IMG/VR virus record: IMGVR_UViG_3300046786_000128 | Location: 12,368-76,367 of that record | From: a virus | Taxonomy: Duplodnaviria > Caudoviricetes | Length of the DNA: 64,000 nt | Reading direction: 5' to 3' (one strand) | In this document: positions 54,593-64,000 of the stretch, piece by piece | How the letters are laid out: every line of letters begins with the position of its first letter | How positions within the stretch are numbered: position 1 is the first letter of the stretch | Translations under genes and position numbers: made by a program | Notes under the pieces: model-generated | What the model saw: only the letters and a program-made list of their open reading frames with translations | The model's database searches: none | Told to the model about the DNA's origin: nothing

Positions 54593-54621
54593 ATTATACA
54601 GAGATAAAAAAAGCCAGTCAA
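54593..54621 (-). promoter_or_regulatory. Sigma70-type promoter for the dsbA/pol operon
   Basis: TTGACT-N17-TATAAT, followed by an AGGAGA SD. Confidence 0.8.
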
Positions 54622-54637
54622 CTTAATGACTGGCTTT
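54606..54637 (-). terminator. Rho-independent terminator
   Basis: AAAGCCAGTCA-ttaagt-TGACTGGC followed by T7 on the minus strand, just after the 54656 stop. Confidence 0.85.
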
Positions 54638-54655: not shown

Positions 54656-55570
54656 TTACTTTTGATCTTCGCTTAGAACATCGTACATTTCAAATACACC
54701 GCCCATACGCTCGTATACCATACCAGCATAAACTTCAGCTTTTGTGCCTTCACCTAGTTTCTGTTTTGCAACACGACTAGCCCATGCAAATAATTCTGTA
54801 TCAACTGGATCAATTTGTTGTTGTCCACCGCTTTCTTGAACCATTAAAATCATTTCTTTAAATGATAGTTTTTGTTCTACGCTTTCAGCAACGACTTTCT
54901 TAGAACGTGTAACTGATTCGTCTTTCTTTGCTTTTTTCTTTTCTTCGGCTTCTGCCTCTTTACCTTGGTACTTATCACCCTTTACAGATGTAGCAGGATG
55001 CTTCTTACCTGACTTATCAGTCCAAGTTGTAGCAGTTTTTTCTGCTGCTTCTTTGACTTTTTCATCTTTCTTAGCAAACGGATTCTTCTTCTTGTCGGAA
55101 ACTGCCTTCTTCAAAGGCTCTTTCTTGTCGCCGTCTTTGTCCATGTCTAGGAAGTCTGGCTTAGCAGCTTCTTCCATTTTTTCTTTCTTAGCTTTCTTTT
55201 CAGCTTTCTTAGCTTCAACCATCTTCATGAATTTGGACTTAAATTCTGGCTCAATACTTTCGTCTGTCTTCTTAGCTTTCTTTTCTTCAGCTTCGGCTTC
55301 TTTGCCCTGATACTTGTCACCTTTTACGGATGTAGCAGGGTGCTTCTTGCCACTCTTGTCAGTCCAAGTAGTTGCTGTTTTTTCAGCAGCTTCTTTAACA
55401 TCTTCTTCAGCTTTTTTCTTAGCTTCAGCAACATATGTGCTACGTCCGCTTAGAACACGCAATTGAGCATCTTCGTTAAGTTGCATAGCTTGTGGCAAAG
55501 ATGGTGCAGCTGGAGTTTTTGCAGGTGCATCCATGCTGTCTAGTTTACTGATGATTGATTTGAAGTCCAT
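54656..55570 (-). CDS. Lys/Glu-rich putative prohead core or internal head protein with a 41-aa duplication
   Basis: Late promoter at 55604-55610; DFLDMDKDGDKKEP EF-hand-like motif; charged low-complexity sequence. Confidence 0.6.
   Translation of the reverse strand: MDFKSIISKLDSMDAPAKTPAAPSLPQAMQLNEDAQLRVLSGRSTYVAEAKKKAEEDVKEAAEKTATTWTDKSGKKHPATSVKGDKYQGKEAEAEEKKAKKTDESIEPEFKSKFMKMVEAKKAEKKAKKEKMEEAAKPDFLDMDKDGDKKEPLKKAVSDKKKNPFAKKDEKVKEAAEKTATTWTDKSGKKHPATSVKGDKYQGKEAEAEEKKKAKKDESVTRSKKVVAESVEQKLSFKEMILMVQESGGQQQIDPVDTELFAWASRVAKQKLGEGTKAEVYAGMVYERMGGVFEMYDVLSEDQK
54935..55399 (-). repeat. Intragenic direct repeat (copies 55277-55399 and 54935-55057)
   Basis: 41 identical amino acids (VKEAAEKTATTWTDKSGKKHPATSVKGDKYQGKEAEAEEKK); 19 of 41 codons differ, all synonymously, by manual comparison. 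Confidence 0.95.
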
Positions 55571-55603
55571 TTTTAAATTCCTTGATCCTAAAGGTTCATA
55601 ATG

Positions 55604-55610
55604 TATTTAT
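55604..55610 (-). promoter_or_regulatory. T4-like late promoter (ATAAATA)
   Basis: Upstream of an AAGGA SD and the ATG at 55570. Confidence 0.65.
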
Positions 55611-55795
55611 CTTTTTACTAAAGAGCCGCCGGTTAGCAGATTAGCACCCTTTAGATCTAACGCATTTGGCACTGTGCCATTTTTATTCTTTTTGAGCTGT
55701 TTGCCTGGTTTATTTGGATAAACAACACCAACAGTAACGTTAGCGGCACTTGTAGCCCCTGCTGTTGCTGTTTCGAACAATTCTTTAATTTTCAT
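55607..55795 (-). CDS. Small putative internal head protein (CTS-like MKIKELFE)
   Basis: Late promoter at 55801-55807, 5 nt before the ATG; CTS-like N-terminus. Confidence 0.65.
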   Translation of the reverse strand: MKIKELFETATAGATSAANVTVGVVYPNKPGKQLKKNKNGTVPNALDLKGANLLTGGSLVKR

Positions 55796-55800
55796 AGTAG

Positions 55801-55807
55801 TATTTAT
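55801..55807 (-). promoter_or_regulatory. T4-like late promoter (ATAAATA), near-leaderless
   Basis: Reads ATAAATA-ctact-ATG. Confidence 0.65.
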
Positions 55808-55810
55808 TGA

Positions 55811-56581
55811 TTATCTAGATAGATATCCGTAGAGTTCTTTTTTAACTTGTTGCCAAGTTCCTGCAGAACCCTGTTTTAGATAACCGCCGTAGTACTTTGT
55901 AGCTAGGTACAAATGATGCAGCGTAGGTAGCTGAATTATCTTTGGACCTATTACGGCATACTCTTGGGTTTTAACTTGCTGCAAGACACCATTTAACACT
56001 TTTAAAGCACGGTCTCCTACAGCATTTCGAATATCGTTAGCTACTTCAGAAACCCATGCATCACGTTCTAGGTTGTTTAAAAGATATTGGAAGTGCTCTT
56101 CGTTGGCATTTTTTGGATCCGGAGGTTGTTTAGAAAATGGGCTGTTTGCTAAATCTAATGCAGCACCTACTTCGTTTTTGCCTATTTGCTGGCTAACTTG
56201 ATGCGCATGATTAAGTTCGTGAATTAATCTAGAACCTAGTTTGTCTAAAAATTGCTGGAATTTCTTATCGCTTAAATCTGCGCCAATATTGATTGTAGAA
56301 ATAATTTCGTGCTTTAACGGATCTTCGTGTACAAGGTGTTCTGCATCTAAGATTGCATAGGGACTAGTTTCGTCATCTACAATTCTTGGTTTAATTGTAA
56401 TTGGACCTTTAACATTTTGTTTTGCCCAATCTTTAAACGCTTTACCTTTGTTTAAGTTTTTAAACAATGCTCCGACCCAATCTACAGTTATTCCAGCAGG
56501 AGGAATTGCAGGAGCCGAAGTTTCGACCCAGGATTTAACCCATGAAGTGCTAATTCGTTCTGTTAATTCGAAAGCTCTCAT
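55811..56581 (-). CDS. Putative zincin-like metallopeptidase with CTS-like N-terminus
   Basis: MRAFELTE start; IHELNHAHQ (HExxH) with a downstream ERDA Glu. Confidence 0.6.
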   Translation of the reverse strand: MRAFELTERISTSWVKSWVETSAPAIPPAGITVDWVGALFKNLNKGKAFKDWAKQNVKGPITIKPRIVDDETSPYAILDAEHLVHEDPLKHEIISTINIGADLSDKKFQQFLDKLGSRLIHELNHAHQVSQQIGKNEVGAALDLANSPFSKQPPDPKNANEEHFQYLLNNLERDAWVSEVANDIRNAVGDRALKVLNGVLQQVKTQEYAVIGPKIIQLPTLHHLYLATKYYGGYLKQGSAGTWQQVKKELYGYLSR

Positions 56582-57399
56582 CTCATTGCCAACTTAAAAT
56601 CTTGAAACTTATCTTTACGTTGATCTAGATGTTTCATTCCAGGATTAATTCCTTTTGTAACATCTTTAACATTGTCAAAGTTTTTAACTTTGCTACTAAC
56701 TCTATTCTGCCAAAACCAAACAGACGTCTTAGCAGCAACTTCCGGCTTTTCTACAAGCTCTGGATTTTTAACTAATCTATCATCACCGTAGATTGCTTTA
56801 GAGGCTTCGGCATAATTGTATTTGCCTGTTAATTGAATATAACCTCTGCCGGAATACTTAGCACCATCTCCAGGTTTAGTATTACCTAATCGTTTAGCTT
56901 TGTTAGGAGCAAATCTAATATCGTATTTTTTAAAGTCTAACTTCCCACCGATTTCTTTCATGTGTTTGAAATCCATTGTTTCGTGAGCACATTGACTCAG
57001 AAACGCTGCAAGTTCTTGACCTTGTATTCCTGCTTTCTCTGCTGCTTTTTTTAAAAGCACTTCGTGTGGATTACCTGTTACAGAGTTTGCTATTTCTTTT
57101 TTGCTAACTGCTTTTAGCGGATCGACTTTCTTAACGTCTTGTTTAACTTGTTGAACAACTGCTGGTTTTTCTGTAGGTTTCTTTTTGGCAGCTTCTGCAT
57201 CTCCTGAACCTCCTAGTGCCGCAGCACCAATAGCAGCCCCTGCTACCCAGTCTTTCCACCCTTCGTCAGTTTGTTCTTCTTTGACCTTGACGCAAGAGTC
57301 CTTGCTGTTCTTAGTACCATTATAACGATAGCCATCCCAGCAGGCTTTGCCGTCGGCGCCTTTTTTCTTACCTTCGATAATAAATTCATGCGCTCTCAT
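56578..57399 (-). CDS. GH19 chitinase/lysozyme-like protein with CTS-like N-terminus
   Basis: MRAHEFIIE start; AAFLSQCAHET and DGAKYSGRGYIQLTGKYNY GH19 motifs. Confidence 0.88.
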   Translation of the reverse strand: MRAHEFIIEGKKKGADGKACWDGYRYNGTKNSKDSCVKVKEEQTDEGWKDWVAGAAIGAAALGGSGDAEAAKKKPTEKPAVVQQVKQDVKKVDPLKAVSKKEIANSVTGNPHEVLLKKAAEKAGIQGQELAAFLSQCAHETMDFKHMKEIGGKLDFKKYDIRFAPNKAKRLGNTKPGDGAKYSGRGYIQLTGKYNYAEASKAIYGDDRLVKNPELVEKPEVAAKTSVWFWQNRVSSKVKNFDNVKDVTKGINPGMKHLDQRKDKFQDFKLAMR

Positions 57400-57683
57400 A
57401 TTTTTTTCTCGCCTGTTAGGTATGGCTTGCTGAACCATAACTTAAACCATTCGGGTGTACCGGGCCTAATATTGTGTTCTTTTTCTATGTCTTGATTTTC
57501 CATTCCGGTAACACTAATGTTGCTACCTTGATTTACACGGTACTCGTGCAATCTTGCTTCATGGCCTAACCCTGCCAAATACTTTATTGATTTTAATTCG
57601 TAGATGGGATCACTAGGATCAAGTATGCAGTCGTCTGGACTATCTTGATTTAAATTTTCAGTAGTGATTTTGTATTGCTTCAT
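57396..57683 (-). CDS. Hypothetical protein (CTS-like MKQYKITTE)
   Basis: ATGA/TAATG overlaps within the late cassette. Confidence 0.65.
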   Translation of the reverse strand: MKQYKITTENLNQDSPDDCILDPSDPIYELKSIKYLAGLGHEARLHEYRVNQGSNISVTGMENQDIEKEHNIRPGTPEWFKLWFSKPYLTGEKKI

Positions 57684-58306
57684 TACCCACCAACTAGTTT
57701 ATTTTTAGGATAACCTTTAGGGTCTTTTCCTTTAAGTTGCCCAGCTGGTCCTTCTTTCTGCCCTACTTTTTTGCCTGCAAATGGCATGTCAGATTCTTCG
57801 AGATTAGGACCATCGCCGAATCTAGATTCATATTCTGCTTCATCTCTTGCATCGTCTAGTGAATAATTTGCAGATTTGATTAGATACTTTAGAGCTTTTT
57901 CAATTTCATAAACTGCGGCATTTGCACTACGTATAGACTCAACAGCTTTCTCCATAGCATCTTTCATATCAACTCTTGCTGAACTATCGCTTAGTTGGCT
58001 AACTGGATCTGTAAGACCTATAATTTCGTCTTCAATTGCTTCGAACTCGTAATGATTTTTTTGTAGTTGCATTACAGCAGGCATCAATTGTTCTAATTGA
58101 GAAATCATTGCTTCAATTTGCTGAATCTTGTTACCGTCTGCTTCGGCAAGTTCTTTTTGCTTATGCTTAACGTCACCTTGCTTTTGAGCTTTCTTTTTAT
58201 CTTTGTGTGCGCCAGCACCGCCCATCTTGGCGTTCTTGGCTACAAAGTTACGTGGCTTTTCTGTTTTTATTTCTTTTGCTTCTGCAATAAAATCTTTAGC
58301 TTTCAT
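57683..58306 (-). CDS. Putative internal head protein (CTS-like MKAKDFIAE)
   Basis: FIAE end matches the T4 IPII/IPIII CTS (MKTYQEFIAE); Lys-rich segment plus coiled coil. Confidence 0.65.
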   Translation of the reverse strand: MKAKDFIAEAKEIKTEKPRNFVAKNAKMGGAGAHKDKKKAQKQGDVKHKQKELAEADGNKIQQIEAMISQLEQLMPAVMQLQKNHYEFEAIEDEIIGLTDPVSQLSDSSARVDMKDAMEKAVESIRSANAAVYEIEKALKYLIKSANYSLDDARDEAEYESRFGDGPNLEESDMPFAGKKVGQKEGPAGQLKGKDPKGYPKNKLVGG

Positions 58307-58913
58307 GTTTAATTCCTAATCCTTTTCGAACAGCATTGAGCATTTCTTCAGCATGCTCTCCTGATCCTGTTATTTTTCTAAATTCTTCGATATCGCCCTT
58401 TTCAGCAGCTTCTCTAGCCTTGGTTCCACTAATACTTGCAACACCTTCACCGTCTGGATCTCTAGATCCGCTTGACTTTTTATCAACAGTTTCGAATTTA
58501 TAATAGCCATGAGCCTTTCCTTCTACACCATTGTATTGTTTACACAATCCAACTAATTCATCTAACTTATCATTACCTGCAACAATAGTTACATGATTGT
58601 ATCCTCGAGAATACAAGTAACTGCATACACTAAGGAATGTAGTTAAATTTGGTTCATCGATAATATGTCTCGAATGTTCCGGATTAATTAATTGTAAAAA
58701 TTTTATTTTATCTTCGTTTGATAAAGGATTTGCTAATTTCTGTGCTTTAGACTTTGGAGTTGGACGACTAGGGAAAATAAAATAGTCACCCCCTTGATTA
58801 GAAACTGTATCTAATAACTGTTTGTGTCCAATCGTTGGAGGATTCATTCTTCCAAAACAGAAGGTTGCATTTTTATCTCCTTTGACGGATTCAAACAGCT
58901 CCAAAAGTCTCAT
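58296..58913 (-). CDS. HIGH-motif cytidyl/nucleotidyltransferase-like protein with CTS-like N-terminus
   Basis: MRLLELFE start; FGRMNPPTIGH, VAGNDK and ISGTKAR motifs. Confidence 0.8.
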   Translation of the reverse strand: MRLLELFESVKGDKNATFCFGRMNPPTIGHKQLLDTVSNQGGDYFIFPSRPTPKSKAQKLANPLSNEDKIKFLQLINPEHSRHIIDEPNLTTFLSVCSYLYSRGYNHVTIVAGNDKLDELVGLCKQYNGVEGKAHGYYKFETVDKKSSGSRDPDGEGVASISGTKAREAAEKGDIEEFRKITGSGEHAEEMLNAVRKGLGIKHES

Positions 58914-59248
58914 TTTTTGTAATCACCACGTTCCATAAATCGTTCTTGTTGCATAGCAAATTTTCTTGCTAATTCGATTAGTTTTTCTTTAGGAAATTTG
59001 TTACCAGGATCTTCAACTTCAAATTTATTACAATATGTTTCTAGACAAGTGTGAAGTGGTTTTAGATAAATTTTGTAAGCATCGGGATGACCCTGATACT
59101 GTTCGTGTTTTTTGATAGCAGGAAAGAAGTGTTGATTTAATATAGCATCATCGTTGTCGATGAAAAACTTTAAATCGCCAATCCAATCGATATCAGTTTG
59201 ATCTTCTTTTGGAGCTCCAAGTGGGGAAAACATTTCTTTTAAAAGCAT
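58910..59248 (-). CDS. Hypothetical protein (late cassette)
   Basis: MLLKEMF start; overlapping neighbours. Confidence 0.65.
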   Translation of the reverse strand: MLLKEMFSPLGAPKEDQTDIDWIGDLKFFIDNDDAILNQHFFPAIKKHEQYQGHPDAYKIYLKPLHTCLETYCNKFEVEDPGNKFPKEKLIELARKFAMQQERFMERGDYKK

Positions 59249-59469
59249 TATTCTTCTCCGCCTACATTTAGACCTAGTGATTTTGCTTCTTTATCAAGAT
59301 CTGCTCTACGTTGCATAATAGCACGTTTAATTTCTGGATCGTTAGACTCTGGATCCATTTGTATATCTTGTAATGCTTTGCGTTTTGCCTTGTAATCGCC
59401 AAGAGGGTCTGCAGAATTTAGTGCAGTTTCAAACATTGCAAGTTCAATTTTAGTGATAAGATCTCTCAT
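59248..59469 (-). CDS. Small hypothetical protein (CTS-like MRDLITKIE)
   Basis: First gene after the late promoter at 59494-59500. Confidence 0.65.
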   Translation of the reverse strand: MRDLITKIELAMFETALNSADPLGDYKAKRKALQDIQMDPESNDPEIKRAIMQRRADLDKEAKSLGLNVGGEE

Positions 59470-59500
59470 AGTATGTTCCGTAAGGTCATACTATATTTAT
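59468..59500 (-). promoter_or_regulatory. Late promoter ATAAATA (59494-59500) with an 8-bp leader hairpin over the start codon
   Basis: Minus strand reads ATAAAT[ATAGTATG]accttacggaa[CATACTAT]G. Confidence 0.65.
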
Positions 59501-59513
59501 CGTTCAAACAAGG

Positions 59514-59882
59514 TTAATAATTATAACGGATTGAGGCGATAGTCCCGTCTTGTAGATTGTATGCGGCACGAATCCAGACAAAATTTCCGGTAAAATTTCG
59601 ACTAAACGATACTGGTTCTACAGTTTCGTTGCCCATAATAGTACTATCATCGCCTATAGTAGTACCATCGATGTCAAACCAGTCAGCTTCGCTAGGGTAC
59701 AATGCTAGCGTACCTTGAATTTTCACTGTACCACTAAAGGCATTGAATGTATATACCGCAGTATGTAACGGGCTATTTAGGCGATAATAGCCTGCTCCCG
59801 GCTGTTTTTCACCGTAGGAAAACGATGCATCTACAGCTTCTGCGGAGATATTTTCTAATAATAAGTGGCTTTCTTTTGACAT
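59514..59882 (-). CDS. Putative small beta-sandwich virion protein
   Basis: Late promoter at 59887-59893, 4 nt before the ATG; beta-rich sequence. Confidence 0.55.
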   Translation of the reverse strand: MSKESHLLLENISAEAVDASFSYGEKQPGAGYYRLNSPLHTAVYTFNAFSGTVKIQGTLALYPSEADWFDIDGTTIGDDSTIMGNETVEPVSFSRNFTGNFVWIRAAYNLQDGTIASIRYNY

Positions 59883-59885
59883 CTA

Positions 59886-60563
59886 TTATTTATCGACAAT
59901 TTTGTATTCGTAGACTTTGCCCACAGCCCCTGCACCTCGCAATTTAAGCATAAGCAAAGTTTGTTCAGAGTCAACTAACACATAACGTCTGTCCCAGTTC
60001 CAATCTGTTTTAATAAACCACTCTTTAACAACTGGACTTATTAAAACTCGTTCGCCTTGTTCATCCATCCAATTTGCTAACTGCTTTTTTGCATCTTTGT
60101 CTTTTGCAAGCACATGAGGTTTAAGAAACACTTTGTATTTGTAAAGATTGTGCGGTAATTTTTTAGCAACAATTGTGTATTGATCAGAATCTATTAGACT
60201 TGGATCTAACGGTTCATGATGATTTAAAACTAGTAAGTTGAATTGACTACACAAATCGTTGTACATTTCAACGTTGTTAGTATAGATGTCAATACAATCT
60301 CTTTCTATACGTTTGGACCAAGTAGTTTCGTCGACAGTTTTTAGATATTCGCAAACAACTCTTATATTTGAAGCATTAGATTTAACTTTATAATACACAC
60401 TATACTTGGGATGTTCGCCTGCGGGAATCTTATAATCAATAAAATCGATGACTTCTTCGAATGTTTTAATTTGACGAAGAACAGCTATACCAGGAACCTT
60501 TAAGGTAACCTTGTACAGCCATTTTCCGTAAAACTTGCGATTAGTTGTTTTCTTCTTGGACAT
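59886..60563 (-). CDS. Hypothetical phage protein
   Basis: Overlaps the clpA 3' end; long ORF in the gene train. Confidence 0.7.
   Translation of the reverse strand: MSKKKTTNRKFYGKWLYKVTLKVPGIAVLRQIKTFEEVIDFIDYKIPAGEHPKYSVYYKVKSNASNIRVVCEYLKTVDETTWSKRIERDCIDIYTNNVEMYNDLCSQFNLLVLNHHEPLDPSLIDSDQYTIVAKKLPHNLYKYKVFLKPHVLAKDKDAKKQLANWMDEQGERVLISPVVKEWFIKTDWNWDRRYVLVDSEQTLLMLKLRGAGAVGKVYEYKIVDK
59887..59893 (-). promoter_or_regulatory. T4-like late promoter (ATAAATA), near-leaderless
   Basis: Reads ATAAATA-atag-ATG. Confidence 0.6.
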
Positions 60564-62871
60564 CTTCCGCTTCTTTAGCAGGAGCTTTCTTTAGAGCACG
60601 TTTTTCTTCTTTAGTTAGCGGCTTTGGCATTTCAGTAACATTGAAAGATAGATCATCATTTTCAATAGTTACTTCAACACGACCACCATCGACCAAATCA
60701 CCAAACAATACTCTACGGCTCAATGGGCTCTTAATCTTGGTATCGATAAGTCGAGCCAATGGACGAGCACCCATCTTTTTATCGTAACCTTTTTCAGCTA
60801 ACCACTTTGATGCTTCTGCTGTAAGATTGATTTCGATATTTTTATCTTTTAATTGATCATTCAATTCGCTGACAAACTTTTTAACAATCTGTACAACAAC
60901 TTCATCACCAAGACTACGGAATTTAACAATAGCATCTAAGCGATTGCGGAATTCAGGAGCAAAGAACTTTTTAACAGCCTTGTCGTCTTCGCCATCTTTA
61001 CCTAGTTCACCAAACCCAATAGTGTTGCGTTCGTTGTCAGCAGCACCTAAGTTAGAAGTCATAATCAAAATAGTGTTACGTCCGTCAGCTTGCTTCCCAT
61101 TAGACCCTGTAACAAATCCGTTATCCATGAAAGCTAACAAAATGTTAGTAACATCCGGATGTGCTTTTTCGATTTCATCAAGCAATAGAATTGCATTGGG
61201 ATGCTCTTGCAACTTAGTAATTAACTGCCCAGCATTATCTTCGTAGCCAACATAGCCCGGAGGAGCACCAATCAAACGTGCAACACTGTGCTTCTCTTGA
61301 TACTCGCCCATGTCAAAGCGGATCAGTTCCATGCCCATCTTGGAAGCCAATGCTTTAGCTGTTTCTGTTTTACCTGTACCAGTTGGGCCCAAGAATAAGA
61401 AACTACCAATCGGCTTGTTAGGAGCCTTCATGCCTGCTTGACTTACAAAGATCTTATCCAGAAGATTTGTAATCGCTGTATCCTGTCCGTAGACAGCAGC
61501 TTTCATACCTTTTTCTAAGTCTGCAAGATTCTTGCTTTCTTTTTGTGCAACAGTTTCCAAAGGCATATTAATCATCTTGCTGAGTTCGTAGACAATTTGT
61601 TCTACGTCAACAATTTGTTCAACACCTTCCATAGTCTCGTCATCTTTGATTTTGTAACGAGCTGCGGCACAGTCGAGAATATCAATTGCCTTGTCAGGCA
61701 GCTTTTTATCTGCCATGTACTTGACACTTAGCTTAACTGCCTGTTCGATAGCTGCATCAGTAATTTTTACATTATGATGTTTCTCGTAGTATTTCTTAAT
61801 ACCTTTGACAATCTTAATAGCCAATTCTGGTGTTGGCTCGTCAACTGTAACACGTTGGAATCGACGCATTAATGCACGATCCTTTTCAAAGTGCTTGCGA
61901 TATTCTTCCCAGGTTGTGCTAGCAATAAGTTTGATAGTGCCTTTTGTAAGAATAGGCTTTAACATATTTGCCATATCGTTGCTACTATTATTAGCAGCAC
62001 CAGCACCTTGCATCATATGTGCTTCATCAATGAACAAGATAATGTTGCCTTTCTTTTCGAGAGCAGCTAACACAGCCTTAACACGTTCTTCAAAATCACC
62101 GCGATATTTACTACCAGCAAGCAACGCACTAATGTCTAGTGTATAAACTTGATGGTCCTGAATAAACTTAGGAACTTTCTTCTCAAAGATTTTACGTGCA
62201 AGTCCTTCGGCAATAGCAGTCTTACCAACACCTGGCTCACCTACCATCAACACATTAGACTTACTACGGCGAGCAAGAATCAATTGAATCTTTTCTAGCT
62301 CTTCGTCACGTCCGATTACTGGATCAATTTTACGTTGTTTAGCAGCAAGGCTAAGATTAGTACAGAATGTATTGATAACACGCTCAGCTTGTGTATTGTT
62401 AGCAACTTGCATTGGTGGTTCTTCGCCGTCCTCAGTTTCGATATTTTCTTGGAAGTATTTGATAAATTTTTCTTTTGTAAGTCCGCCCTTGCTCAAGAAG
62501 TAAAAGCCAAAGCTATTCTTCTCGCTCAATACGCTGATAATAATATCAGCTACTTCCATCTTCTGGCGTCCACTAAACAATACCTGAGTAAAGCAACGAT
62601 TAAGTACACGCTCTACGGATGTTGTCTTTTTAGGCTTGTGATCCTCATCATCTATTTTAATATCATTGAGATTATTTTTTAGATAGTGATCTAAATTAGC
62701 TTTGATGAATTTAGCATCTGCGCCGTATTTTTCAATGATGTCATATGATTCTTGATCACACATGATAGCATAGATCAAATGCTCTATGGTAATGTATTCG
62801 TGCTGTAATGCCTTGGCATTTTTAACAGCATCATCAAAAATGTGTTGAAGATTATTGCTTGGTTCTATCAT
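60541..62871 (-). CDS. clpA: ClpA-type AAA+ unfoldase
   Basis: Clp N-domain (EHL), GEPGVGKT, FIDEAH, GPTGTGKT, PPGYVGY, LLDEIEKAH and IGFG ClpP-docking loop; no ClpB middle domain. Confidence 0.95.
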   Translation of the reverse strand: MIEPSNNLQHIFDDAVKNAKALQHEYITIEHLIYAIMCDQESYDIIEKYGADAKFIKANLDHYLKNNLNDIKIDDEDHKPKKTTSVERVLNRCFTQVLFSGRQKMEVADIIISVLSEKNSFGFYFLSKGGLTKEKFIKYFQENIETEDGEEPPMQVANNTQAERVINTFCTNLSLAAKQRKIDPVIGRDEELEKIQLILARRSKSNVLMVGEPGVGKTAIAEGLARKIFEKKVPKFIQDHQVYTLDISALLAGSKYRGDFEERVKAVLAALEKKGNIILFIDEAHMMQGAGAANNSSNDMANMLKPILTKGTIKLIASTTWEEYRKHFEKDRALMRRFQRVTVDEPTPELAIKIVKGIKKYYEKHHNVKITDAAIEQAVKLSVKYMADKKLPDKAIDILDCAAARYKIKDDETMEGVEQIVDVEQIVYELSKMINMPLETVAQKESKNLADLEKGMKAAVYGQDTAITNLLDKIFVSQAGMKAPNKPIGSFLFLGPTGTGKTETAKALASKMGMELIRFDMGEYQEKHSVARLIGAPPGYVGYEDNAGQLITKLQEHPNAILLLDEIEKAHPDVTNILLAFMDNGFVTGSNGKQADGRNTILIMTSNLGAADNERNTIGFGELGKDGEDDKAVKKFFAPEFRNRLDAIVKFRSLGDEVVVQIVKKFVSELNDQLKDKNIEINLTAEASKWLAEKGYDKKMGARPLARLIDTKIKSPLSRRVLFGDLVDGGRVEVTIENDDLSFNVTEMPKPLTKEEKRALKKAPAKEAEDVQEENN

Positions 62872-62872
62872 G

Positions 62873-63367
62873 TTATTTCTGTTTCCTGAGTTTCTTCATA
62901 GCTAATTGTAACTTCATTTGAGACACTCTGTCAACAAAGCAGGTGCCCATCAAATGATCGTACTCGTGTTGAAAACATCTAGAGATTAGTCCAGACATTT
63001 CTGAAGTGATTAAGTCCCCATCACTGTTTTGATATTCTGCAATAATAGAAGAAGGGCGTTTTATGTTTAACCATAAATCCGGATAGCTAAGACATCCTTC
63101 TTTGTCGAGTTCAGTTGCTTCGCTGTAATGTGTAATCTTAGGATTGAACACAGCAAACGGAGCAGGGAATCCATCAATAAGATTACTGCCAATAACAAAT
63201 ACTTGTTTAGCTAATCCTACTTGATTTGCGGCAAGCCCTATGCCCTTGTGTTGAATCATGAAATCAATCATAGATTTCTCTAACTCTTTAGCATCACCGT
63301 CTGCTGTAAAATCCCAGGGAGTACTAACCTGTGTTAGTGTTTCTTGAGGTCCTAGTTTAAAACTCAT
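62873..63367 (-). CDS. def: Peptide deformylase
   Basis: GIGLAANQ, EGCLS and QHEYDH motifs. Confidence 0.97.
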   Translation of the reverse strand: MSFKLGPQETLTQVSTPWDFTADGDAKELEKSMIDFMIQHKGIGLAANQVGLAKQVFVIGSNLIDGFPAPFAVFNPKITHYSEATELDKEGCLSYPDLWLNIKRPSSIIAEYQNSDGDLITSEMSGLISRCFQHEYDHLMGTCFVDRVSQMKLQLAMKKLRKQK

Positions 63368-64000
63368 TTTTTAATTTTTCTATCTTATCTCGTTGCTCGG
63401 CTGTTAAGTGTCGAGGAATCATAACTCTAATTTTAATTAACATATTTCCCCTATGACGTGTACGCATATTGGGAAATCCTTCATTACGACAACTTAGTAT
63501 TGTTTCGCTCTGTGTTCCTGCCGGAACAGTAATTTCTAAAGTTTTATCTTCTAGAGTTTCGATTTGTAATTTGCACCCTAGCATAGCATCCCAGATTGAA
63601 ATATGCTTTTCTAGGACTAACGAATCACCTTCTTTTCTAAATTGTGTATCGTTGATTAATCGAATGTTAACAATTAGATCTCCAGGCGGCACAGTTTTAA
63701 TGCTGTCATCGCCCATGCCTTGATAACGAATTTGTTGTCCTTCGTTAATTCCTGGCGGAATATCAATATTAATAATTTTGCTCTTACCGCCTGGCATGGA
63801 AATTTCAGCATCTAATTTCTTTCCAAAAAGAACTTCTTTAAATGTAACGTCTACGGTGATATTAAGAGTTTTGTTCCTTTGCATTTGGCGCTGCCCGAAT
63901 CCAAAGCCGCCTCCAAAAATATCATTCCAATTTCCGCTACCAAAATGAAATTCAAACGGACCTTGATTAAATCCGCCGTGGTGTTGATGGTGATGTTGAT
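63357..64000 (-). CDS. dnaJ: DnaJ/CbpA-like co-chaperone, 5'-truncated (G/F linker and C-terminal domain)
   Basis: The frame stays open to the window end (QHHHQHHGGFNQGPFEFHFG...FGGGFGFG); IPPG...GQQIRYQGMG...PGDLIV and G.P..R...RGNMLI motifs; no zinc finger. Confidence 0.88.
   Translation of the reverse strand, partial: QHHHQHHGGFNQGPFEFHFGSGNWNDIFGGGFGFGQRQMQRNKTLNITVDVTFKEVLFGKKLDAEISMPGGKSKIINIDIPPGINEGQQIRYQGMGDDSIKTVPPGDLIVNIRLINDTQFRKEGDSLVLEKHISIWDAMLGCKLQIETLEDKTLEITVPAGTQSETILSCRNEGFPNMRTRHRGNMLIKIRVMIPRHLTAEQRDKIEKLKNEF

What the first reader, a model, noticed from the sequence alone, without database searches (positions are those of the whole stretch)
54656..59882. Late-expressed cassette of proteins with T4-style capsid-targeting N-termini: a packaged cargo system
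Seen: consecutive unrelated proteins begin MRDLITKIE, MLLKEMF, MRLLELFE, MKAKDFIAE, MKQYKITTE, MRAHEFIIE, MRAFELTE and MKIKELFE. Four ATAAATA late promoters serve the block (59887, 59494, 55801, 55604), and it ends at a terminator. Established: T4 internal proteins carry an about 10-aa CTS (MKTYQEFIAE) cleaved after Glu by gp21 and are injected with the DNA; IPI blocks a restriction enzyme. Inference: these proteins, including three enzymes, are tagged for head packaging and delivered at time zero, a modular injected toolkit of likely anti-defence or host-takeover factors.
Basis: partly seen in the sequence, partly recalled or inferred. Interest (0 to 1): 0.8.

Follow-up and report, generated by a model that had tools for sequence, protein, structure and literature searches.

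The report
T4-style capsid-cargo leader gene cassette
An uncultured giant T4-like freshwater phage puts a short leader, very like the tag T4 uses to load proteins into its head, on a swappable late-expressed set of proteins including enzymes, so they are probably packed into the virion and delivered with the DNA, though nobody has measured this.

Summary
Five adjacent minus-strand genes start with one 8-9-residue leader (Met, Lys/Arg, x, x, Glu, Phe/Ile/Leu, Ile/Val/Leu/Phe, x, Glu). They encode an NTase, a DUF7230 protein, a GH19 hydrolase, an HExxH protein and a 62-aa peptide. No other ATG frame of the 76-kb contig has this leader. In 27 related contigs it heads 96 of 258 cassette genes and 3 of 445 flanking genes, on about 40 different protein bodies. 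Synonymous codons vary freely, so selection acts on the peptide.

The four ATAAATA sites are real late promoters: the contig has only 10 against about 48 expected, and 9 sit just before a start codon. The terminator is real. Close relatives encode a T4 gp21-type head protease. Their capsid protein carries a matching Leu-x-Glu site, which the 62-aa peptide copies.

The NTase belongs to cyanophage family T4-GC190, found by mass spectrometry in S-SM1 and S-CREM2 virions. In S-CREM2 a T4-type leader pattern hits exactly three genes, all virion-detected.

Three of the eight listed N-termini (o73, o112, o95) are doubtful. Packaging, cleavage, injection and anti-defence roles are untested. This is a new member of the known T4 internal-protein system. 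The scan has noted similar leaders on other uncultured T4-like phages.

The parts
59887..59893 (-). Late promoter ATAAATA, 4 nt before the ATG of o122; the mRNA is probably leaderless
   Evidence: Kept in 22/23 relatives.
59514..59882 (-). o122, 122 aa, a late gene without the leader. Possibly a virion protein
   Evidence: Weak PHROG hits: phrog_13657 at 1e-9 and 'virion structural protein' at 1.5e-3.
59494..59500 (-). Late promoter ATAAATA serving the translationally coupled operon o73 to o256
   Evidence: Present in 12/12 relatives that have o73.
59248..59469 (-). o73, 73 aa, with a different N-terminal type (MRDLITKIE...) that loosely resembles the start of T4 Alt. Cargo status uncertain
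58910..59248 (-). o112, 112 aa, starts MLLKEMF. Present in nearly all relatives. Its start resembles T4 gp68 and the relative's gene in the gp67 position. Function unknown
   Evidence: The atlas search gave only noise.
58296..58913 (-). o205, leader plus an HxGH-type nucleotidyltransferase (cyanophage family T4-GC190, NMNAT/PPAT-like fold)
   Evidence: PF01467 scores 26.9 bits against a cut-off of 21. The model has pLDDT 90; its best PDB matches are PPAT and NMNAT at E about 1e-4. It is 37-38% identical to the cyanophage cytidyltransferase.
57683..58306 (-). o207, leader (MKAKDFIAE) plus a basic DUF7230 module and a coiled-coil tail
   Evidence: The leader is kept in relatives.
57396..57683 (-). 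o95, 95 aa. Its leader-like start is not conserved in homologues, so it is probably not tagged
56578..57399 (-). o273, leader (MRAHEFIIE) plus a basic Cys motif, a Gly/Ala-rich segment and a GH19 muramidase/chitinase domain. It is an accessory gene, found in 23 of 80 related loci
   Evidence: PF00182 at 1.6e-13; phrog_181 at 2.6e-38.
55811..56581 (-). o256, leader plus a putative zincin-like metallopeptidase with an invariant HELNH motif
   Evidence: In alignment A1 (17 homologues down to 40% identity) the leader's Met and terminal Glu-Arg are invariant and its first Glu is kept in over 90%, comparable to the metal motif. The model has pLDDT 82 with residues 1-8 disordered. Fold matches to mini-zincins are weak, Z 4.5-5.6.
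55801..55807 (-). Late promoter ATAAATA, 5 nt before the ATG of o62
   Evidence: Present in 11/11 relatives.
55607..55795 (-). o62, leader plus a copy of the capsid protein's predicted maturation site and mature N-terminus, then a basic tail
   Evidence: 13/17 residues identical to residues 37-53 of the relative's capsid protein. The feature is kept across the family.
55604..55610 (-). Late promoter ATAAATA, 33 nt before o304
54656..55570 (-). o304, a Lys/Glu-rich repeat protein with a second conserved N-terminal type (MDFKSIISKLD...). Cargo status unknown
   Evidence: A similar start occurs in a late structural block of relative G001.
54610..54637 (-). Intrinsic terminator (11-bp stem plus a T run) that closes the late unit
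54593..54621 (-). Sigma-70-type promoter (11/12 match) for the downstream o87 to DNA-polymerase genes. It marks the switch to early or middle genes

Best explanation
The block is a hyperplastic late-gene cassette for internal head ('cargo') proteins of a giant T4-like phage.

Proposed mechanism:
- Each tagged protein carries an 8-9-residue N-terminal propeptide equivalent to the T4 capsid-targeting sequence.
- The propeptide docks the protein onto the scaffolding core of the prohead.
- The gp21-type head protease then cuts after the invariant Glu, which has Ile/Leu/Val three residues before it.
- The mature protein stays inside the filled head and leaves with the DNA at infection.

Cargo in this phage: an NMNAT/PPAT-like nucleotidyltransferase, a GH19 wall hydrolase, a putative zinc protease, a basic DUF7230 protein, and a small peptide that mimics the capsid protein's matured N-terminus.

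Shown here: the leader, its specificity and its peptide-level conservation; the late promoters and the terminator; the protease and a matching capsid cut site in close relatives; and published virion detection of the homologous enzyme in cyanophages.

Inferred: docking, cutting, packaging, ejection, and what the cargo does in the host.
For: Leader and T4 comparison:
- Translated from NC_000866, T4 ipII and ipIII start MKTYQEFIAE, and gp22, gp24 and Alt have similar starts. Here FIAE, FIIE and LFE end the leader.
- A review (PMC9026906) places T4 targeting at residues 4 and 7 and processing at residues 8 and 10. Those positions correspond to the best-kept leader positions here: Phe/Ile at 6, Ile/Val/Leu at 7, and Glu at 9 in 61/61.
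- Codons vary freely (Ala3 uses four codons, Glu5 is GAA or GAG, position 2 is Lys or Arg), so selection acts on the peptide.

Specificity and variability:
- Searches show the leader is specific to the cassette. In the 187-kb relative G001, 5 of 205 genes match: four in the cassette and one beside the portal gene.
- A further late gene in G001 starts MKTFKEYLAE.
- About 40 body clusters carry the leader.
- Cassette proteins are 35-92% identical between relatives whose polymerases are 86-93% identical.

Promoters:
- ATAAATA is depleted genome-wide and sits at gene starts.
- Its density is 0.62/kb in the cassette against 0.04/kb in the flanks.

Head machinery in relatives:
- Peptidase_S77 is present at E 1e-25, with a T4-like head module.
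- The capsid protein has a Leu-Ala-Glu/Ser site that o62 copies.

Structure:
- The leader is disordered or detached in both models.

Experimental support in relatives:
- T4-GC190 was detected in S-SM1 virions (PMC3037559) and in S-CREM2 virions (PMC10665884).
- S-CREM2's virion-detected enzymes start with T4-like 10-mers.
- A DNA pattern for that 10-mer hits only gp6, gp13 and gp154 in S-CREM2, with 0 control hits. All three were detected by mass spectrometry; the chance of that is about 0.013.
Against: - There are no proteomic or N-terminal data for this phage.
- The contig lacks the head module, so the protease is shown only in relatives (polymerase 89-90% identical).
- Short amphipathic acidic N-termini can arise without packaging. 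T4 gp61.1, an early-region gene not known as an internal protein, starts with a near-perfect look-alike.
- The NTase family carries its 'LFE' start in almost all of 120 environmental homologues. For that protein the leader could be read as a family feature.
- The S-CREM2 authors themselves caution that abundant proteins may co-purify with virions.
- Cultured jumbo relatives Phosso and Atu_ph07 show only 1-2 pattern hits.
Confidence: 0.75

Rival explanations
1. The tagged proteins are targeted to the prohead core but act only as assembly or scaffold components. They are degraded or expelled at maturation and are not delivered effectors.
For: T4 gp22, gp67 and gp68 have similar starts and are largely destroyed. 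In the relative, the scaffold protein and the gene in the gp67 position also have leader-like starts. o62 copies the capsid protein's maturation site, which fits an assembly role.
Against: The bodies are folded enzymes (NTase, GH19) and vary between close relatives, which is unlike scaffolds. The homologous NTase persists in mature cyanophage virions.
Confidence: 0.1
2. The leader is a recognition tag for another partner, for example the ClpA-type unfoldase encoded just upstream. It would serve regulated unfolding or turnover rather than head packaging.
For: A ClpA homologue (904.8 bits to the ClpA model TIGR02639), a peptide deformylase and a probable DnaJ-like gene (the last judged only from its translated sequence) lie directly upstream, and ClpA-o225-o122 keep their place next to the cassette in relatives.
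Against: The synteny comes from very close relatives and carries little weight. Lys/Arg at position 2 should keep the initiator Met, so no N-end-rule residue is exposed (inference). The leader matches T4's tested targeting and processing positions and also occurs in the head module. The same kind of leader marks virion proteins in S-CREM2.
Confidence: 0.06
3. The shared start is a by-product of recombination or common descent. It would be a short homology patch used for gene shuffling, or simply a common amphipathic helix, with no sorting role.
For: The locus is a shuffling hot spot, and modules are exchanged right at the leader's end. Look-alike starts exist in unrelated genes: the MKWF family here and T4 gp61.1.
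Against: There are 56 different 27-nt versions among 77 leaders, with free synonymous change but fixed Glu and hydrophobic positions. In the o256 family the leader is about as conserved as the metal-binding motif at 40% overall identity. Enrichment is 37% inside the cassette against 0.7% outside.
Confidence: 0.06

Closest known systems
Phage T4 internal proteins IPI, IPII and IPIII (and Alt), with the capsid-targeting sequence and gp21 processing (Mullaney & Black 1996; reviews PMC3012670, PMC9026906)
   Same: - A short N-terminal propeptide with the same key residues, ending hydrophobic-x-Glu.
- Late expression.
- Unrelated, fast-changing mature parts behind a constant tag.
- An enzyme among the cargo (Alt in T4).
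- A gp21-family protease in the lineage.
   Different: - The leader is one residue shorter (9 against 10).
- There are five to six tagged genes in one coupled late operon beside the DNA polymerase, rather than three scattered ip genes.
- The cargo includes an NTase, a GH19 hydrolase and a putative zincin.
- The host phage is a ~370-kb uncultured freshwater relative whose polymerase is only 44-51% identical to those of its nearest cultured jumbo-phage relatives.
- Nothing has been shown biochemically.
Polymorphic internal-protein loci of T-even phages (Repoila et al. 1994, as cited in PMC3012670 and PMC9026906)
   Same: A hyperplastic locus in which only the targeting sequence is conserved and the bodies are swapped between related phages.
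   Different: Here the swapping also involves multi-module proteins, and some module joints follow a Glu. This suggests protease-cut polyproteins, which are not described for T-evens.
Virion-associated non-structural proteins of T4-like cyanophages: T4-GC190 cytidyltransferase in S-SM1 (PMC3037559); the SAM hydrolase, kinase and cytidylyltransferase of S-CREM2 (PMC10665884)
   Same: o205 is a homologue of T4-GC190 (37-38% identity). The cyanophage proteins begin with T4-like 10-mers and sit behind TATAAATA.
   Different: Neither paper, as far as I read them (text searches and selected sections, not in full), links these proteins to a targeting leader. The cyanophage genes are scattered rather than grouped in one cassette, and their NTase has a long linker between the leader and the domain.

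Membership tests
T4-type capsid-targeted internal proteins (CTS/IP system) | An N-terminal propeptide of about 10 residues, with an aromatic or hydrophobic targeting residue and a hydrophobic-x-Glu processing site | tested here: met
   Met for o205, o207, o273, o256 and o62. Uncertain for o73 and o112. Not met for o95, o122 and o304.
T4-type capsid-targeted internal proteins (CTS/IP system) | A gp21-type (Peptidase_S77) prohead protease and a T4-like scaffold and capsid in the same phage | tested here: inconclusive
   The window's 76-kb contig has no head module. Two relatives with 89-90% identical polymerases have PF03420 at E 1e-25, above the cut-off, plus portal, scaffold and a gp23-like capsid gene.
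T4-type capsid-targeted internal proteins (CTS/IP system) | A constant tag on unrelated, rapidly exchanged mature parts | tested here: met
   About 40 body clusters carry the leader in 81 loci. The cassette holds 8-11 genes, of which 1-6 are tagged.
T4-type capsid-targeted internal proteins (CTS/IP system) | Late transcription | tested here: met
   Sequence level only. ATAAATA is purged elsewhere and sits at gene starts; 4 of the contig's 10 copies serve this block, and the positions are kept in relatives.
T4-type capsid-targeted internal proteins (CTS/IP system) | Physical presence in the virion, removal of the propeptide, and ejection with the DNA | not testable with these tools
   Indirect only: the homologous NTase family was detected in S-SM1 and S-CREM2 virions.
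HxGH nucleotidyltransferases (PF01467; NMNAT/PPAT-like) | Pfam match above the cut-off, the (T/H)xGH and ISxTxxR motifs, and a Rossmann-like fold | tested here: met
   26.9 bits against a cut-off of 21. TIGH and ISGTKAR are visible in the translation. Foldseek matches PPAT and NMNAT at E about 1e-4 with TM 0.5-0.65. The substrate is not resolved.
Glycoside hydrolase family 19 | Pfam match above the cut-off over the catalytic region | tested here: met
   PF00182 scores 51.4 bits against a cut-off of 25.5. Some relatives add a LysM domain.
Zincin metallopeptidases | An HExxH motif plus a downstream ligand, within a zincin fold | tested here: inconclusive
   HELNH and a downstream Glu/Asp are invariant in 17 homologues. 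Foldseek found no match. VIA-align gave only Z 4.5-5.6 to mini-zincins and Wss1.

The most novel reading that the evidence does not exclude
Across aquatic T4-like phages, from cyanophages to this freshwater jumbo clade, a readable N-terminal code marks the whole injected protein set. In this clade the code drives a plug-in late cassette whose modules are exchanged at the protease cut site, partly as polyproteins that are cut apart in the head. It includes a peptide that mimics the matured capsid N-terminus and, in relatives, an NTase fused to a sigma-70 region-4 domain. This would be a time-zero host-takeover or anti-defence kit that can be predicted from sequence alone.
Probability: 0.3. Interest if true: 0.75.

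Novelty: new member of a known kind. Interest (0 to 1): 0.55.

Why it matters
If the leader works as in T4, the proteins a phage delivers together with its DNA could be read directly from metagenomic sequence for a large, uncultured and abundant group of phages. It would also explain why enzymes such as the cyanophage 'cytidyltransferase' keep turning up in virion proteomes. The tagged set gives a short list of candidate first-minute host-takeover or counter-defence factors to test. The mechanism itself is not new: it extends a well-studied T4 system.

Tried and rejected
Searches that found nothing or little:
- Megablast of the block against cultured phages: no match.
- o256 in cultured phages, IMG/VR and the metagenome contigs: no locus.
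- tblastn with the leader plus DUF7230 part: no match.
- Leader DNA patterns in Phosso, Atu_ph07, a Vibrio jumbo phage and an Asteriusvirus: only 0-2 hits each, in unannotated genes. Cultured jumbo relatives gave no help.
The 369,613-bp contig that carries proteins 98-100% identical to o256 and o205 could not be read.
- PDB sequence searches for o205 and o256: nothing.
- Foldseek for o256: nothing.
- Atlas search for o112: noise.

Ideas rejected:
- Conservation at the RNA level: rejected by the codon analysis.
- A signal peptide: the leader is acidic and short.
- GH19 as the phage's essential endolysin: it is present in only 23 of 80 related loci, and the hydrophobicity of its Gly/Ala-rich segment is low.
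- A ClpS/ClpA N-degron: Lys/Arg at position 2 keeps the Met.

Open point: S-CREM2 gp12 has a leader-like stretch at residues 17-25, but the codon before it is CTG, so its true start is undecided.
Full report
**What the DNA is**

The window covers most of a 76,367-base virus contig. Its DNA polymerase is 51% identical to that of Sinorhizobium phage Phosso, 46% to Agrobacterium phage Atu_ph07, and about 43% to Asteriusvirus coliphages. IMG/VR holds hundreds of close relatives with polymerases 86-93% identical. CheckV completeness values put the genome near 370 kb. The phage is therefore an uncultured giant T4-like phage.

**Anatomy of the block**

All genes are on the minus strand:
- o122 lies behind an ATAAATA 4 nt from its ATG.
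- A second ATAAATA (59494-59500) heads seven genes joined by ATGA, TAATG or short overlaps: o73, o112, o205, o207, o95, o273 and o256.
- o62 and o304 each have their own ATAAATA.
- An 11-bp-stem terminator at 54610-54637 closes the unit. It overlaps an 11/12 sigma-70-type promoter for the following o87 to polymerase genes.
- The GH19 gene starts at 57399, not at the longer ORF's ATG. That start shares an ATGA with the upstream stop, and relatives start at the same point.

**The leader is real and specific**

- A strict pattern (Met, Lys/Arg, 2-3 residues, Asp/Glu, Phe/Leu/Met/Ile, Phe/Ile/Thr/Leu, optional residue, Glu) hits 5 of 728 ATG-started frames of the contig. The five are o205, o207, o273, o256 and o62.
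- The pattern was drawn from these genes, so the informative result is its absence elsewhere and its behaviour in other genomes.
- In 27 related loci with a complete cassette it heads 96 of 258 cassette genes against 3 of 445 flanking genes. Those three are one early family starting MKWF that matches by chance.
- In the 187-kb relative G001 it hits 5 of 205 genes: four in the cassette and one beside the portal gene.
- The leader sits on about 40 different body clusters. These include GH19 with or without LysM, NTases with various tails (one with a sigma-70 region-4 domain), DUF7230, DUF6321 and many unknowns.
- Cassette proteins are only 35-92% identical between phages whose polymerases are about 90% identical, and genes come and go.
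- Among 61 distinct leaders, Glu9 is invariant and Glu5 is present in 59. Position 6 is Phe or Ile and position 7 is Ile, Val or Leu. Codons vary freely at all of these, so the peptide is under selection, not the RNA.
- In the o256 family the leader's first Met and its terminal Glu-Arg are invariant, like the HELNH motif, at 40% overall identity.
- Both structure models leave the leader disordered or detached from the fold.

**Late promoters**

- The contig has 10 copies of ATAAATA against about 48 expected from base composition. Nine lie 4-33 nt upstream of an ATG on the same strand.
- Four of the ten serve this block. The others serve baseplate and fibre genes.
- G001 shows the same pattern: 34 copies in all, and 29 genes with one upstream.
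- Over 23 relatives the density is 0.62 per kb in the cassette against 0.04 per kb in the flanks, and the positions before o122, o73, o62 and o304 are kept.

**Link to the head machinery**

- The contig lacks head genes. Relatives G001 and G002 encode Peptidase_S77, the family of T4 gp21, at E 1e-25 and above the curated cut-off.
- That gene sits in a T4-like order: portal, a small gene, an acidic protein, protease, scaffold, capsid protein. The protease is 33% identical to gp21 and the capsid protein 35% to gp23.
- T4's own leaders, read from NC_000866, are MKTYQEFIAE (ipII, ipIII), MKTFKEFTS (ipI), MELITELFDE (Alt), and similar starts on gp22, gp24, gp67 and gp68.
- A review reports that in IPIII residues 4 and 7 matter for targeting and residues 8 and 10 for processing (PMC9026906). 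With one residue fewer, the leader here keeps exactly Phe, Ile and Glu at those places.
- The relative's scaffold protein, the gene in the gp67 position and a 302-aa neighbour of the portal gene also begin with leader-like peptides.
- The capsid protein has Leu-Ala-Glu followed by Ser-Ala-Thr-Ala-Gly-Ala-Thr-Ser, in the region that aligns just after T4 gp23's cut site.
- o62 repeats this site and the following residues, 13 of 17 identical, directly behind its leader. The copy is kept across about 37 family members. This is the best internal sign that the leader's final Glu is a protease site.

**Experimental support from relatives**

- o205 is 37-38% identical to the cyanophage 'cytitidyltransferase', gene cluster T4-GC190.
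- Sullivan et al. 2010 found T4-GC190 in purified S-SM1 virions (PMC3037559).
- The S-CREM2 study found the cytidylyltransferase, a SAM hydrolase, a kinase and others in virions. The authors noted that such enzymes are detected frequently, and cautioned about co-purification (PMC10665884).
- I read the S-CREM2 genes. gp154, gp6, gp13 and gp14 start with T4-like 10-mers (Lys, x, Phe/Leu, x, Ser/Ala, Phe, Leu, Thr/Glu, Glu). gp154, gp6 and gp13 lie behind TATAAATA or GATAAATA; none was seen in the 40 nt read upstream of gp14. gp15, also virion-detected and behind TATAAATA, starts MNFSEF, which is not this 10-mer. Their undetected neighbours lack such starts.
- A DNA pattern for that 10-mer finds exactly gp154, gp6 and gp13 in the whole genome, with no hit to the reversed control. 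All three are on the published virion list. With 52 of 221 proteins detected, the chance of this is about 0.013.
- In T4 the stricter 10-mer pattern, which also requires Glu at position 6, finds ipII, ipIII and gp61.1. The pattern used for S-CREM2 adds two further hits in T4, at 29.3 kb and 91.6 kb, which I did not examine.
- I did not see a targeting leader mentioned in either cyanophage paper, which I read by text search and selected sections, not in full. A library search for 'capsid targeting' with 'cyanophage' returned only the T4 review.

**Cargo**

- o205 has the TxGH and ISxTxxR motifs and a confident model (pLDDT 90). The model matches PPAT and NMNAT structures about equally.
- o273 is a GH19 domain behind a basic Cys motif and a weakly hydrophobic Gly/Ala stretch. 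It is present in only 23 of 80 loci, so it is an accessory gene and not the phage's sole lysin.
- o256 is a putative zincin, with invariant HELNH but only weak fold matches.
- o207 carries DUF7230.
- What any of these does in the host is unknown. 'Anti-defence' remains a guess, although T4's IPI provides a precedent (PMC3012670).

**Limits**

- No protein data exist for this phage.
- The protease is shown only in relatives.
- T4 gp61.1 shows that look-alike starts occur in genes not known to encode internal proteins.
- Nearly all of 120 environmental homologues of the NTase carry its 'LFE' start. For that protein the leader is an old family feature; this is consistent with an old tag but does not prove one.
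- o95's start is not conserved. o73, o112 and o304 have other conserved starts of unknown meaning.

**Verdict**

The block is a new member of the T4 internal-protein kind, with an unusually large, modular and enzyme-rich cassette. This scan has made similar readings on other uncultured T4-like phages.

Noticed in passing
window 55607-55795 (-); L083:11836-13011: The 62-aa protein o62 carries, right after its leader, a near copy of the capsid protein's predicted cut site and mature N-terminus (13/17 identical). The copy is kept across about 37 family members. It could be a decoy or competing substrate for the head protease, or a small internal protein that uses the capsid protein's N-arm contacts.
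   Followed up: partly
window 59887-59893 and 55801-55807 (-); G001: About a third of the late promoters lie only 4-7 nt before the ATG (o122 and o62 here; 14 of 29 in G001). If transcription starts as at T4 late promoters, this implies leaderless late mRNAs.
   Followed up: partly
L001-L080 cassettes: A basic module that begins Asn-Phe-Ala-Asp-Gly is always preceded by Glu, usually as hydrophobic-x-Glu. This holds both directly behind the leader and inside longer proteins, which hints at cargo polyproteins cut apart by the head protease. The module is not present in the window's own cassette.
   Followed up: partly
L071:4397-5935: In one relative the tagged NTase is fused to a sigma-70 region-4 domain (PF04545, E 2e-14). 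In others it is fused to DUF7230 or, in environmental homologues, to a pterin dehydratase domain.
   Followed up: no
window 54656-55570 (-); G001:141897-142841: A second conserved N-terminal type (Met-Asp-Phe-Lys-Ser-Ile-Ile-Ser-Lys-Leu-Asp ... Asp-Ala-Pro) heads o304 in 71 loci. It recurs on a late gene next to a T4-like 10-mer gene in a structural block of relative G001. Its meaning is unknown.
   Followed up: no
window 60541-63884 (-): A proteostasis set sits directly upstream of the cassette: a ClpA-type ATPase (904.8 bits to the ClpA model TIGR02639, just under its 993-bit cut-off), a peptide deformylase and a probable DnaJ-like gene. The synteny is kept in relatives.
   Followed up: partly
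NC_000866 18966-19130 (T4 gene 61.1): T4 gp61.1, a 54-aa hypothetical protein in the primase region, starts with a near-perfect capsid-targeting look-alike (MKTFKEFIKE).
   Followed up: no
OR473000 (S-CREM2) genes 6, 13, 14, 154; NC_006883 PSSM2_194: Mass-spectrometry-detected 'non-structural' virion proteins of the cyanophage S-CREM2 share a T4-like N-terminal 10-mer behind late promoters. I did not see this link in the parts of the two cyanophage papers I read (text searches and selected sections).
   Followed up: partly
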